This document shows, piece after piece, positions 1 to 13,844 of a DNA stretch of 64,000 nt (the stretch's first letter is position 1; every line of letters begins with the position of its first letter). A program made the translations under genes and the position numbers. Under the pieces are notes generated by a model. It was given only the letters and a program-made list of their open reading frames with translations. It did not search any database and was not told the DNA's origin. The DNA comes from Amoebophrya sp. A120 (Eukaryota > Protista > Dinoflagellata): assembly GCA_905178155.1 (NCBI GenBank), contig CAJINV010000017.1, forward strand, positions 1,356,722-1,420,721, written 5' to 3'.

Positions 1-3000
1 GTCCCGCTGAAAAAAGTGGGCTCTGGATCGTTCGGACAAGCATGGCTCGTAGGGCAGGATGAAGACGGGAAGCGGCAAAACTACGTCTGCAAAATGGTAT
101 TACTTTTGACTAGCAACATCAAGAGAAAAAAAAAATATCGCATGATGAAAGCCAAAACTTCAATTATCAGTTGAGGTGTCTGCAATGTCGTTTTCTGGAT
201 TGATGATGCATGATCTTCCGTGCGACATCTATCCTAGCTTCGGCAAATGCGCACGAAAATGTGAAAGGCGAATCTGAAATTCTTGTCAATGTTTTTAGGC
301 TTCTTGTTGGTGCACGAAATTTGTGATGTAGATCGGCGTTTGAAAACAAGATCAAGATCTACGATGTATTGTGTCTACAAAGCGGCCCTGTTCATCGAAC
401 CTATCCCACTTTCCCTATCCCTGTCAGATCGACATCAGTCGTTGTAGTGCCAAGGAGAAGAAGGACGCTTTGCACGAAGCTTCCGTTTTGAAAACGCTAC
501 AACATCCGTACGTGGTACGGTATAAGGAGTCTTTCCTCGAGGACGGATGGCTCTGCATTGTGCAGGAATACTGCGAGGGTAACAAGTATTTTTGACAATT
601 TTGCTTTGAATTTGATGTCGCGTGGAACTAGAAGTAGAAACTGCACCAGCTCCTGCTTCTGCATAAGGGGCCTCTGTTCAGCTGCAGTTTCAGATTGTGC
701 AGGGTAAAGTCTTTGAAACAAAAAAACAGGCGGCGACATGTACCAGCGAATACAAAAAGCGAAGAAAATGCACCAGCCCTTTTCTGAGGACCAGATTGTT
801 ATCCCGGAAAGAAGACCCATCCCCATTCAATTCGTCATGCAAAACATCCATAAAACCCACTATTTTTCATGCAAAAAAAGGATGTGGATGGGTGTTTTTT
901 CCTGGATAAATGTCCGGTGGTTTACGCAGTGCATGCTGGGGCTGAAGTTCATCCATGACAAGAAGATTTTGCACCGAGATTTGAAGTCGAGTAACTTCTT
1001 TCTATCCAAAACCGGCGACATAAAGATGGGCGACTTTGGAATCGCAAAAGTGCTCGAATCAACGGCCGCAGTGGCGAAAACACAGATCGGTAAATTGAGT
1101 CATGATGTCGTGTAGGATGAATAGTGATGATGAAGTTAGTTGATGTCACAGGAGGTGGTACAAGTGCCACATGTTGGATTGAACAAGGTGCATGTGGTGG
1201 TGCATGGAGGTCGTAGTTTTCGTCCGTTTCATGATGCTGTCAACAACATGCATGACGATTTATTGCAAATGATGACGAAGCTGAAGCAGAACGCAAATAA
1301 TTTTCCGAAACCATATCAGGTACACCGTACTATCTGTCGCCGGAAATTTGCCAAGAAAAGGCGTACGCCTGGCCGAGTGATATTTGGGCGATGGGTTGCA
1401 TTCTGTACGAAATGTGCTGTCTCCGAGTACCGTTCGACGCTGCGGATTTACGAGCGCTGGTGCACAGGATAACAAGAGGACCGAGCCCCAGTTTGCCGGG
1501 ACAGTAAATTCTATTTGACATTGCGAATGTCGTTATCGGAGTAGATGACTTATTGTGATACATTCAGAGCCACAGGAATTTTCATGCGCAGAAGAGCGTG
1601 CTTCTTGCGCTTCAAAAATCAACATAAACGTACCGCAAAACGTCAACGAAAATTAAGTTTTATACCATTACCATGACCCACAGCTTCTCCCCCCAGTTGC
1701 GGCAACTCGTGACTGATATTCTCGTGAAGGACCACACCAAACGGCCCACGGCGGAGAAGATCCTTACCCGGTCCATCCTGGCCGACCGCGTGCGGAAACT
1801 GGAGGCAGAGGACACGGGCGCCGGTGGGCAGGAAAAGCAGGAGGGAAGCAAGAAGGACGACATCTCGCTCATCCAGTCCAAATTGGAGCAGGGCGGGAGC
1901 TATGCAACATTGCAAAAGTATCCAACTAGTGTAGATTGCATTACAAATTATCTCAGCATGATGGCGAATGAAGTTTGTAATGCTGTTTTAGCTTTGGAAG
2001 GGGATTTGTGATGCATAACTGCAATTTTTACTAGGAGTGCGATGGTTTTGCAATGCATATGAGCAGTTCGTCAAACGCGAAAGGAGCCGGGAACAATAAT
2101 AATGCCGTGAAAGGCCCGTATGCGGATGAAGCGGGTAAGTACACGAAGAACCAGGTCGTGGAGTACTACTCGGAAACGCACAAGGAGTGGCTGCCCGCGC
2201 AAGTAACCGCGGTAGATTCGGACGGGAGAATACAGGTGCACTGCAAACCAAACGCGTGGCTCTCCTTGAACGTGCAAGCGCAGAAGGTACTTAATCTTCG
2301 TGTAAATCGGTTTTTACTGGATTTTCTTCATGCGCATGCAGCGGCTTTTTTTTTTTCGTTTAGATTATATGCAGCAACACTACAAGCTGTTTGCCTTTGC
2401 GCGGTTGAAGGCATCAACAACCGCGTGTCATGATCCTGTTCGGATCGGTTTTTTCGTAATGTAATGCTGGAATGAAGAAAATGAAAATCTAAAATCAGGT
2501 CCGACCGAAGAAGGATGAGAATAAGGAAAACAAGCCCCGGCCGCCCGTGGTGCCGGTGTTGGAGCATCAAAAGGGGTCCAGGTCCTCCTCCTACAACACA
2601 CCGCGATACCCGGGAGCCGCAACACCACCGGTATACCACCGCCAGGCGACGCCACCCTACGCCTACCCACCGGCGGGTGGCAGAATTGGTATTCGGTGTT
2701 TTCGTTCTACTGTTGGTTTTGGAGTTTATTTTGTCAGAAATTTCAAAGTTTATTTCGATTCTGCTTTACTTCGCTTTAGAGAGAATTGAATACCTGTTCT
2801 TTTGGTTTGATCAGTCACAAGCATTGCGTCGGTCATTGATTTGATCACTTATCGATGAAAAGGTTCTCCATCCCCGTTTGGCGGCCGCGGTACTCCGAGA
2901 TTAGCCTATGGCGTCAACCGGTACACGCCCCGCGGCGGGGTTGGCACTCCACGGGCCGCATCCCCAATGAATCGCCCGCCATGGCAGGCGGGCTCGCCCC

Positions 3001-3035
3001 GAGGCGGAGGAGGGTACTCGAATCGGATCTATTAG
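1..3035 (+). CDS. NIMA-related (NEK) Ser/Thr kinase, 5'-partial; exons <1-96, 428-578, 730-799, 914-1089, 1320-1503, 1684-1900, 2065-2286, 2499-2688, 2863-3035
   Basis: Spliced frame gives [82 protein letters not shown] and [13 protein letters not shown], all typical of NEK1/NEK4-type kinases. Six GT-AG introns and two TIR-type introns all join in frame. Stop TAG at 3033-3035. Confidence 0.93.
800..913 (+). mobile_element. Introner-like non-canonical intron A (109-bp TIR element plus one 5-bp direct repeat copy, 114 nt)
   Basis: Left arm TATCCCGGAAAGAAGACCCATCC pairs with right arm GGATGGGTGTTTTTTCCTGGATA (3 mismatches in 23 nt). Flanks are ATTGT (795-799) and AATGT (909-913). Removal restores FSEDQIV|RWFTQ in the kinase. 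Confidence 0.88.
1901..2064 (+). mobile_element. Introner-like intron B (164 nt)
   Basis: Ends TATGCAACATTGCAAAA and TTTTGCAATGCATA, with flanks GGAGC (1896-1900) and TGAGC (2060-2064). Removal joins [10 protein letters not shown] in frame. A canonical alternative GT1918-AG2066 also keeps frame. Confidence 0.65.
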
Positions 3036-11707: not shown

Positions 11708-13844
11708 ATGGTGGAAACAAAACCGAAGGAAAAATCGGCCATCTCTTGTTCTCGTTTACCTTCGTCTCTTTCCTCTGCAAACCGCAGCGCAGCAGGAGGA
11801 GATTCTTTGTCGCCCAGCGTGAAAAAGTCTGTATCACCCACAATCTCGTCTTCGTCCACTCTTGCAGCTGCAGCGGAGGGGTCGTGCGTCGCGGTTGTTG
11901 AAGAAAAAGTAACGGGTCGCGCTCAAGCTCAACAAGACCAAGACGCACGGCTAGAAGGTGTTGCATGGTCTGCACCAATTGCACAATCTGGCACATCAAC
12001 GAGCACAGTTGATGCTCTTCTCCCACCGGAAGTTCGTGGTACGGTCGAAGAACTACAGCATAATTATCGAGAAAGTTCTTACACCGTCGAAGACGAAACC
12101 ACGCACGACGACTGCTTCATCGTGAAGTTCGAACACGCGGCGCCGGAGTTGGACGTCGAGGGCGCCCTGGACGATGGCGCGACACGACCGCTGTTGGCGA
12201 AGGTGAAGGAAGCAGAGCGACAGGATGAACAGCGGCCCTTCGGAAAAGTTGACATGAATTCAGGAGTTGACCTTGATCCTACTGCTTCAACCCCACTACT
12301 TGAAACAGGTTGCAGTCAGCATGCTGAAGAAGATTCGTTCCACGGTGGCCCGCTGCAAACGAAATGCCCGCATCAAGTGGAACACAAGAACCACTCGATC
12401 AAAAAAGCAGCGGACGCGGAGCACAAAAATCATAACCCCGAGGAGTCCTCTTCGACGTCGAATTTACCCGTGCTACTTTCGGGGAAAGAAAAAGATGATG
12501 TGGACCTACATGGTGTACTAAATTCAACAGCAACTACATCAAAACTGCACCACTTGGTGGATCACCCGATCATGCTAGACAATTTCACTGTTGTGCCGAC
12601 CCAAAGCTGCGAAAAGCATGGAATAAGCTGCAAGGGAGGAAATCGGGTTCACGAAGATGGAACCACCGTTGTGAATGCCGCGAAATCAGCCGAAAATAAA
12701 TCCAGCCTACAGCAAGTCACGCAGGTTCAAATTGGAGTTACAAATGAAGTCGATGAGAACGTGAGGCACAAGAGTATAACCAGGTGCATGGGAGATGTGA
12801 AAGACAGAAGTGGACGGCTGGCCCCCGACGATGTGGTTTTGGAAATAAGCAACCCTGCTGCCGTTGTACAGACCACGGGTCAAGAACATCTCCAGAGGCG
12901 AAGTGACCAAGAGGATAAGCCACAGGCACACGGTGTTCACAACGAAGAGCCGCTGGAACAACTACACGACACTCAATCCGACCCCCTCGTAGTTCCTCCC
13001 GAACTACCCGTGAGTGTGAAACTGCGCAACAAGATGGGGACTACAACGAGAAAACAGCACACGTCAACTTCCCGCGATTCCACTTCTACACGAATCGAAG
13101 ATTTGTACGAAAAGGACTCGATCCGGGAGAAAAGGAAAAAACAAGCCGCGAACCGGAATTGTTTGACCTGTTTGGTGATCAAATTCTTCTCATATCCACA
13201 GAAAAAAACCCATCCAATTTGTCATGCAAAACACGTGTCAAGTCATGTGTTTGTCATGCAAAAAGTGGATGTGGATGGGTTTTTTTCTGTGGATATCTCA
13301 GTCGTGGCCTGTGGACTGATCGTAGCGATTGGAGTGGTCGGGTTGCTGCAGGCAGAGGTAATAAACGAGGCGTTTTGCTCTTCGTCTTTCTATATCTAAT
13401 CTTGCGGTAGAACTACACTTGGAGATGGTCCTATTGAGAAGGGGAAGAAGAACCCCTGTAGTTTATCATTTGTGCATATGAGTGACAAGTCAAAAACAAT
13501 GACAAATCCTTTTCCAGGCCGACAATGCAAGACGGGCCGTTAAAGCTATGGAAGCGCGATTCTTGCAGCAGTCGTTGCAAGATTCGAGAAATTTCGCGTC
13601 CGCTGGGATTATATTCAATACGGTGCCTACCCCTGCGAAAAAGAGTGCTCTTCTCAATAAGAACATTGGAAGACAAGCAACGTCGTTTTTGCTACAGAAT
13701 GACCAGCTTCAACAGCAGCAAAACTTCGGGAAGGCAAACAAGGACGGCAAAGGAGTAAATCCAGCATTCGAACCCGAATTGGAACCGGGGACGCCAGGGG
13801 GTCTTGGTGGAGGGCAGGCGGAAAAATTACTGGCACCGCAGTAA
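11708..13844 (+). CDS. Hypothetical single-pass membrane protein; exons 11708-13192, 13301-13357, 13518-13844
   Basis: Long hydrophilic ORF. Removing TIR element D gives a continuous hydrophobic stretch CLVIKFFS|VVACGLIVAIGVVGLL after basic KRKK. GT13358-AG13517 intron joins in frame to ORF 13548-13844. Confidence 0.7.
13193..13300 (+). mobile_element. Introner-like non-canonical intron D (103-bp element plus 5-bp repeat, 108 nt), same family as A
   Basis: Perfect 23-bp TIR TATCCACAGAAAAAAACCCATCC / GGATGGGTTTTTTTCTGTGGATA and perfect TCTCA direct repeat (13188-13192, 13296-13300). Internal TCATGCAAAA x2, as in A. Confidence 0.92.

What the first reader, a model, noticed from the sequence alone, without database searches (positions are those of the whole stretch)
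795..13300. Four TAT...ATA transposon-like introns with 5-bp direct repeats that must be excised without GT-AG ends
Seen: elements at 800, 1901, 7841 and 13193 all begin TAT, end ATA, have 14-30 bp inverted arms and are flanked by a 5-bp direct repeat (ATTGT/AATGT, GGAGC/TGAGC, CCGGG, TCTCA). Removing the element plus exactly one repeat copy restores the frame in each case. No register across the repeat gives GT-AG, GC-AG or AT-AC. Known: IR/DR introners have been reported in Amoebophrya, and to my knowledge their splicing machinery is unresolved. Inference: a shared rule (TAT/ATA termini, 5-bp TSD, long closing stem) spanning at least three unrelated sequence families suggests one transposase type and structure-guided RNA excision operating beside the normal spliceosome, even within one gene.
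Basis: partly seen in the sequence, partly recalled or inferred. Interest (0 to 1): 0.85.

Follow-up and report, generated by a model that had tools for sequence, protein, structure and literature searches.

The report
Known Amoebophrya transposon introns, cut mapped
Four short transposon-like inserts in genes of a likely Amoebophrya parasite are missing to the base from likely RNA-derived contigs although they have no normal splice signals; this kind of intron is already published, but related copies suggest the cut likely falls two to three bases outside each hairpin end.

Summary
All four elements (800-908, 1901-2059, 7841-8103, 13193-13295) run TAT..ATA with 5-bp flanking repeats. Contigs of likely-RNA runs skip each element plus 5 nt, at no GT-AG, GC-AG or AT-AC register. 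A DNA-like run keeps C and D. Farhat 2021 describes these Amoebophrya A120 introners (TAT-N7-AAA ends, 3-5-nt repeats, mixed genes); Gozashti 2025 lists an A120 family with '5-bp TSD, TA/TA termini' and an integrase-like ORF.

Added here from copies in a related assembly: the repeat is a true 5-bp target duplication (79 of 89 perfect) with no base bias; orientation to the gene is random (43:38); GT-AG is possible in 6 of 151. Imperfect duplications suggest the mRNA keeps left-copy bases 1-2 and right-copy bases 4-5, so the cut likely lies 2-3 nt outside the stem. Seven families share an internal motif, TGT[CA]ATGC, so they are not unrelated. Two tests for selection on RNA pairing found no signal. 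The splicing machinery stays unknown; no transposase was found.

The parts
800..908 (+). Element A, non-canonical intron in the kinase domain of a NEK-like gene; TAT..ATA, 27-nt arms; repeats 795-799 ATTGT and 909-913 AATGT; mRNA keeps the left-copy base at repeat position 2
   Evidence: joint 796>911 in X1 and X2
1901..2059 (+). Element B, non-canonical intron in the same gene; weakest stem; repeats 1896-1900 GGAGC and 2060-2064 TGAGC; mRNA keeps the left-copy base at position 1
   Evidence: joint 1896>2061 in X1 and X2; 19 full-length homologues in one family of the fetched loci
7841..8103 (+). Element C, non-canonical intron in a short gene starting MGNLCC (ATG 7727); member of a very high-copy family; perfect repeat CCGGG at 7836-7840 and 8104-8108
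   Evidence: joint 7835>8104 in X1; both junctions present unjoined in DNA-like X5
13193..13295 (+). Element D, non-canonical intron, same family as A; 24-nt perfect arms; perfect repeat TCTCA at 13188-13192 and 13296-13300; in frame and stop-free if retained
   Evidence: joint 13187>13296 in X2; X3 contig stops at 13187 with 703 nt left, equal to the two next exons; unjoined in X5
1..3030 (+). Host gene of A and B: protein kinase (NEK-like, family label recalled; Pfam Pkinase hit), 5'-incomplete, with six GT-AG introns at 97-427, 579-729, 1090-1319, 1504-1683, 2287-2498, 2689-2862
   Evidence: (492-aa open frame after splicing)
7727..8337 (+). Host coding region of C; the frame runs on only after removal of C+5 nt
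11711..13868 (+). Host gene of D (no Pfam hit for the 11672-13396 frame), with a GT-AG intron at 13358-13517; end coordinates approximate
865..872 (+). One copy of the shared internal motif T[GT]T[AC]ATGC; others start at 1945(-), 1976(+), 7874(+), 7933(-), 7995(-), 13220(+), 13252(+)
   Evidence: 8 of 14 window hits lie in the 634 element bases; out-of-sample test

Best explanation
These are gene-less copies of inverted-repeat DNA elements, flanked by 5-bp target duplications, that are absent from spliced contigs; they likely jumped by an integrase-like transposase and are likely removed from the RNA by a machinery that finds the paired TAT..ATA ends and would cut two to three bases outside them. 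Shown: ends, duplications, multicopy families, removal of element plus exactly 5 nt, and coexistence with GT-AG introns in one gene. Shown in related copies: no base preference in the duplication and no orientation preference. Inferred: the cut falls inside the duplication after base 2 or 3, so the intron is nn(n)-TAT..ATA-nnn(nn), with base 3 weakly assigned to the left copy. Inferred: because neither the host target nor the transcribed strand supplies a fixed signal, the inverted repeat must be the signal, and the cut is set by distance from it. Inferred and untested: the chemistry is a cut-and-join step without a branch point, separate from the GT-AG spliceosome and like euglenid non-conventional introns. 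Inferred: the shared motif TGT[CA]ATGC is a DNA-level transposase binding site. The identity of the inserts as spliced transposon introns is about 0.95; the cut position about 0.7; the stated confidence is for the whole mechanism.
For: Splicing 4 of 4; no joined form in DNA-like X5 for C and D. Family C copies defined by an internal anchor: 84 of 89 TAT..ATA, 5-bp repeat perfect in 79 and one-off in 6, against 1 perfect 4-bp and 0 perfect 6-bp. Among 151 confidently oriented exonic copies of 254: no base bias at any repeat position (chi-square p 0.28-0.85), GT-AG possible in 6, G[TCA]-AG in 17, neither a GT/GC donor nor an AG acceptor in 34; orientation 43:38 in the largest family. Flank phases scored separately need element+2 mod 3 in 60 of 64. 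Eight of 8 elements in locus L064, removed with 5 nt, give junction peptides matching annotated protein P0001. Cut position: left base kept at position 2 (A) and 1 (B) in contigs; right base at position 1 would give a stop in L045; annotated orthologues show the right-copy residue in 4 of 4 informative cases at positions 4-5; at position 3, 9 of the 12 closest SNF2 homologues have L/M, closer to the left-copy F than to S. 129 of 149 copies form at least 10 of 14 terminal pairs in the predicted fold. The motif is strand-indifferent (172 sense, 184 antisense) and 44 of 151 copies have no exact sense copy.
Against: No sign of selection for pairing on the transcribed strand: G.U 48 vs A.C 52, stem energy -41.46 vs -41.50 kcal/mol. 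Stem position 7 is paired in only 54% and one family pairs less than randomly re-paired arms (4.54 vs 4.98). The chance candidate 20677-21147 (TAT..ATA, perfect repeat, 8 of 12 pairs) is not skipped in X1, so the short rule alone is not sufficient. The position 4-5 evidence uses gene models of another strain (83-98% identity to the queries), not RNA of the loci; 3 of 8 such cases were chosen, by exon length. The position 3 column is noisy (E 54, gap 43, L 32 of 148). Half of one-mismatch repeats are synonymous (14 of 28), which does not exclude a sliding cut. X1-X4 are only guessed to be RNA, and contigs cannot show minor forms. No transposase was found in 24 window frames. Nothing here tests the chemistry.
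Confidence: 0.5

Rival explanations
1. An altered major spliceosome, lacking or replacing U1, removes these introns as lariats, with the hairpin only bringing the ends together.
For: Farhat 2021 found nearly all spliceosomal proteins but no U1 snRNA in A25 or A120. Canonical and non-canonical introns are removed from the same transcript. Each end pair gives a U-rich tract near the 3' end in either orientation (TATN7AAA at 432 of 508 ends).
Against: No fixed dinucleotide at any register and no target bias; no orientation bias, which a branch point would tend to impose; the shared motif lies within 60 nt of the 3' end on the sense strand in only 13 of 151 copies. The register that would give NT donors (cut one base before TAT) is disfavoured by one case only, L100.
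Confidence: 0.3
2. A protein reads the end sequence (TAT-N4-TG-N-AAAA) at each end independently; base pairing of the arms is a by-product of transposon structure.
For: End positions 9 and 11-14 are conserved across families while positions 4-7 vary and are often unpaired; no G.U bias and no strand difference in stem energy.
Against: 23 of 87 further copies have one altered base in TAT or ATA, 17 of them with a perfect duplication and most in apparent coding frames. Two families lack the TATN7AAA pattern (0 of 28 and 0 of 12 ends). Long stems tolerate single mismatches, so the null tests have little power.
Confidence: 0.15
3. The elements are not introns: the transcribed strain or allele lacks them, or they are cut from the DNA.
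For: X1-X4 are not on record as RNA; an empty site would also show one copy of the repeat; C's joint is seen in one run only.
Against: DNA-like X5 runs through the junctions of C and D with no joined form and holds 0.98 of the words of 400-8400. Listed long pieces differ from the window by 0-1 letters, and X1, X3, X4 and X5 share the variant at 15912. All 4 of 4 elements are missing, in contigs that also lack GT-AG introns for A, B and D. 60 of 64 related copies interrupt coding phase.
Confidence: 0.03
4. Nearby canonical sites (1918-2066 for B, 7826-8132 for C) or intron retention (A, D) give the working mRNA.
For: Those sites exist and are in frame; A and D are stop-free when retained.
Against: The listed joints are the non-canonical ones to the base; neither canonical pair is listed. 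Retained A would put 38 residues into the kinase domain.
Confidence: 0.02

Closest known systems
Introner elements (IEs) of Amoebophrya sp. A120, Farhat et al. 2021, PMC7789003 (sections 10, 11, 12, 16 read whole; other passages; supplement legends and table passages; figures not seen)
   Same: Non-canonical ends, inverted repeats starting TAT then 7 variable bases then AAA, 3-5-nt direct repeats (a 5-bp example in Fig. S19 legend), genes mixing both intron types, many families, hairpin model, machinery unknown.
   Different: That paper gives the repeats as variable in length and position, leaves the border unknown, and argues against general transposase mobilisation. Here the duplication is a fixed 5 bp with no sequence bias, the cut is bracketed inside it, and a motif is shared across families. 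I did not find these three points in the text I read.
Amoebophrya sp. A120 introner family 38 and other TIR families, Gozashti et al. 2025, PMC12130899 (passages; all 58 A120 rows of Dataset S2; 2 of 14 supplement files not searched)
   Same: [quoted passage not shown] Most A120 rows are TIR DNA of unknown superfamily with mixed splice dinucleotides.
   Different: The window's elements are 103-263 bp with no ORF. Only fam38 carries that note; automated TSD calls in other rows vary or are missing. I could not compare sequences with fam38.
Ginger1 and Ginger2/Tdd DNA transposons, PMC2836005 (passages)
   Same: TIR elements with integrase-like transposases; TDD-4 and TDD-5 make 5-bp duplications.
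   Different: Ginger ends are TGTNR and most make 4-bp, sequence-biased duplications; here ends are TAT and targets unbiased; no transposase seen.
Non-conventional introns of euglenids, PMC12501133 (abstract, discussion) and PMC11282704 (passages)
   Same: Paired inverted ends set a few bases inside the splice sites (N3-CDG .. CH'G-N5-6), MITE-like origin proposed, coexisting with GT-AG introns, unknown machinery, excised as circles.
   Different: Different motif and spacers, a purine preferred after the 3' site there but no bias here, unrelated lineage; circular products untested here.

Membership tests
Amoebophrya A120 introner elements (Farhat 2021) | Spliced intron without GT-AG ends | tested here: met
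   4 of 4 joints in likely-RNA contigs; no canonical register
Amoebophrya A120 introner elements (Farhat 2021) | Terminal inverted repeat of 8-20 nt or more forming a hairpin | tested here: met
   B is weakest (z -2.43)
Amoebophrya A120 introner elements (Farhat 2021) | Ends TAT, 7 variable bases, then at least AAA | tested here: met
   Read: 6 of 8 window ends fit; left ends of A and B deviate. 432 of 508 ends in related loci (TAT was required by that scan)
Amoebophrya A120 introner elements (Farhat 2021) | Direct repeat of 3-5 nt at the boundaries | tested here: met
   5 bp in all four; 79 of 89 perfect in family C
Amoebophrya A120 introner elements (Farhat 2021) | Repeated in the genome | tested here: met
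   A and D 77% identical; blastn homologues of all four in related loci; summed X5 depth 94,320 and 3,540 in the C and D bins against about 43 elsewhere, not a copy number
Amoebophrya A120 introner elements (Farhat 2021) | Host is Amoebophrya of the A120 type | tested here: inconclusive
   Indirect: three host genes in loci sharing these families match proteins named Amoebophrya sp. A120; no window protein was searched for taxonomy
MITE-like non-autonomous TIR DNA transposons | Fixed-length target site duplication, TIRs, no coding capacity | tested here: met
   window elements 103-263 bp
MITE-like non-autonomous TIR DNA transposons | Autonomous partner with the same ends | tested here: inconclusive
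   None in 24 window frames; 10 longer candidates in loci, not domain-searched, the best-paired ones 457-972 bp with stop-free stretches under 120 aa; no whole genome held
Ginger DNA transposons | TGTNR termini | tested here: not met
   84 of 89 family C copies are TAT..ATA, 1 starts TGT; definition
Ginger DNA transposons | Integrase-like DDE transposase | not testable with these tools
   No coding element in hand; lead only from the published fam38
U2 (GT/GC-AG) spliceosomal introns | GT/GC donor with AG acceptor in some register | tested here: not met
   0 of 4 in the window; GT-AG 6 and G[TCA]-AG 17 of 151 in related loci
U12 (AT-AC) introns | AT-AC ends | tested here: not met
   0 of 4; 9 of 151 by any register; minor snRNAs reported absent
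Euglenid-type non-conventional introns | N3-CDG .. CH'G-N5-6|R code | tested here: not met
   Paired core is TAT..ATA and no purine bias at any repeat position
Euglenid-type non-conventional introns | Excision as non-lariat circles | not testable with these tools
   Needs intron-product sequencing; the two raw-read runs laid held 17 and 1 reads on the stretch

The most novel reading that the evidence does not exclude
Amoebophrya runs a second, non-spliceosomal splicing system that measures from a transposon hairpin: it cuts 2 nt before TAT and 3 nt after ATA regardless of sequence or orientation, makes any insertion of this one transposase system silent, and arose independently of the euglenid system it resembles. 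All families would descend from one integrase-like transposon lineage marked by the TGT[CA]ATGC motif.
Probability: 0.3. Interest if true: 0.85.

Novelty: already known. Interest (0 to 1): 0.4.

Why it matters
The elements themselves are a published oddity. What could matter is the sharper rule. A fixed 5-bp duplication, random target and orientation, and a cut bracketed 2-3 nt outside the stem would replace the 'no clear splice signature' picture with one geometric rule. That rule is testable with existing RNA-seq at imperfect duplications and with minigenes, and it narrows the search for the unknown splicing machinery and for the transposase. It would also help gene annotation, where reported splice dinucleotides likely reflect aligner choice inside the duplication.

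Tried and rejected
No whole genome is held, so no genome-wide scan or transposase search was possible. The A/D end pattern had 0 matches in viral contigs. Pfam on 24 window frames gave no transposase or integrase. Window candidates from looser scans: 20677-21147 is not spliced in X1; 30015-30556 and 61603-62906 were not tested. A G requirement in the duplication, suggested by 3 of 4 window cases at position 4, vanished in 151 copies. Mismatch position in gene orientation showed no clear skew (8, 7, 2, 4, 7 over positions 1-5). The synonymous share of mismatches, 14 of 28, did not separate one free copy from two constrained copies. The shared motif as a branch point was rejected. The best hit for the position 3 test, P0004, was a read-through gene call on DNA and gave no junction residue. 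Earlier scan notes: nothing for this genome or for element C; one search listed similar cases in other genomes, not used as support. Literature: six full-text searches listed no later paper on the Amoebophrya cut position or the motif; subscription papers such as Roy et al. 2023 were seen only as citations.
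Full report
Observation. An unbiased stem-plus-repeat scan recovered A, C and D among 11 candidates; B has a bulged arm and was read by eye. At a strict threshold the window has 4 hits against 0.17 expected. Fold z-scores are -5.58, -2.43, -5.83 and -10.0 for A to D.

They are removed from transcripts. Contigs of runs X1 and X2 (RNA is the tool's guess) skip 114, 164, 268 and 108 nt, each the element plus 5. The contig that skips A and B also skips six GT-AG introns and yields a 492-residue kinase frame. 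C is seen in X1 only. Run X5 behaves as DNA, with flat depth near 43 and no joint at two GT-AG introns that X1, X3 and X4 skip. It runs through both junctions of C and D without the joined form (8 joints and most pieces were not shown). A and D would be in frame and stop-free if retained, so frame alone does not force their removal. The canonical alternatives proposed for B and C are not among the listed joints.

A larger sample. All three window families have homologues there. Three host genes match proteins named Amoebophrya sp. A120 at 98, 91 and 83% over the queries, so this looks like a related strain, and the window is likely from the same group. These copies have no RNA check of their own and the sample is enriched for family C. 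Of 89 family C copies whose ends were set by an internal anchor, 84 are TAT..ATA; the 5-bp repeat is perfect in 79 and one-off in 6, while 4-bp and 6-bp repeats are perfect in 1 and 0. A general scan gave 513 stem candidates, of which 254 were kept (stem score 12 or more, at most one repeat mismatch, duplicates dropped); 243 fall in 12 families. With strand taken from the locus and the two flanks scored separately, 60 of 64 need element plus 2 modulo 3 removed. In locus L064, 8 of 8 elements removed with 5 nt give junction peptides that match P0001; one window has an I/V difference away from the joint.

What the signal can be. Among 151 confidently oriented exonic copies, no repeat position departs from exon composition, GT-AG is possible in 6, and 34 offer neither a GT/GC donor nor an AG acceptor. 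Orientation to the gene is 43:38 in the largest family and not significant in six others. The only feature constant under both random target and random orientation is the inverted repeat. Whether it acts as a stem or as a sequence is open: 129 of 149 copies form the terminal stem in the predicted fold, but sense and antisense stems are equally stable and G.U does not exceed A.C (48 vs 52). Single changes in TAT or ATA occur in 23 of 87 further copies. A window site with TAT..ATA, a perfect repeat and 8 of 12 pairs is not spliced.

Where the cut falls. With perfect duplications the register cannot be read; imperfect ones bracket it. Contigs keep the left base at position 2 (A) and 1 (B), and in L045 the right base at position 1 would be a stop. 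I tested 3 of the 8 confident non-synonymous cases at positions 4-5, chosen for long exons, and a fourth came with P0001. The annotated orthologue has the right-copy residue in 4 of 4: S and R in L064, G in L002 (position 5), K in L100 (position 4). By my own rough reckoning this has probability about 0.001-0.01 if the cut were flush with TAT, against 0.2-0.5 if it lies inside the duplication. One position 3 case leans left (9 of the 12 closest SNF2 homologues have L/M where left gives F and right gives S), but the full column is noisy. The likely intron is thus 2-3 bases, TAT..ATA, 3-2 bases. These are gene models of another strain, position 4 rests on one case, and a sliding cut is not excluded.

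A shared motif. T[GT]T[AC]ATGC, picked from the four window elements, occurs in 224 of 233 copies of seven families in the loci, 8-315 hits per family against 0.4-5.7 in shuffles. It often points inward 33-43 nt from an end, is strand-indifferent, and has no exact sense copy in 44 of 151. That fits a transposase binding site better than a branch point; this is inference.

Comparison. Farhat et al. [quoted passage not shown] Gozashti et al. 2025 (PMC12130899; passages and the 58 A120 rows of Dataset S2) class most A120 families as TIR DNA elements and note '5-bp TSD, TA/TA Termini' with Copia/Gypsy-like ORFs for family 38. Ginger membership fails on termini. Euglenid non-conventional introns work alike, with paired ends set a few bases inside the splice sites, but use another code. 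Six searches listed no paper on the cut position or the motif; unseen figures, two unsearched supplement files and subscription papers may hold them.

Verdict. Real, supported by transcript contigs, and already known as a class. The added value is a tighter and testable rule for the cut, at moderate confidence, while the machinery and the transposase remain unidentified. Interest 0.4.

Noticed in passing
window 23469-24205 and 62488-63224: A 737-bp GC-rich repeat in two copies (93.5% identical) with an internal hairpin and a short inverted repeat near its ends; very high summed depth in X5 (17,628 in one bin against about 44). No flanking duplication seen; X5 joints link its left end to family C ends.
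   Followed up: partly
window 42604-43609: Tandem array with a unit of about 104 bp, 80-89% identical between copies.
   Followed up: no
window 7727-8337 and 10126-10592: Two neighbouring short genes start MGNLCC and MGNNCC, an acylation-like start (label recalled); one X1 contig (7650-11168) spans both.
   Followed up: no
window 23200-23460: T-rich low-complexity array of short TTTTAG/TTTTAC/TTTTGC-like units just left of the 737-bp repeat.
   Followed up: no
window 41266-50713: Rad21/Rec8 N-terminal hit at 41266-41826 and C-terminal hit at the end of the 46190-50713 frame, with the 104-bp array between: possibly one very long cohesin-subunit gene.
   Followed up: no
window 15912: X1, X3, X4 and X5 all read G where the window has A: a possible assembly error or strain variant.
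   Followed up: no
L064 754-5984: One gene carries at least eight TAT..ATA-type elements within about 5 kb.
   Followed up: partly
L049 3001-3972; L032 3315-3945; L031 571-1051: Long family C copies (972, 631, 481 bp) with perfect duplications, possibly nested insertions; longest stop-free stretches 85-118 aa.
   Followed up: no
window 61603-62906: A fourth strict scan hit (TAT..ATA, 10 of 12 pairs, one repeat mismatch) overlapping the second 737-bp repeat; likely chance, not tested with RNA.
   Followed up: no
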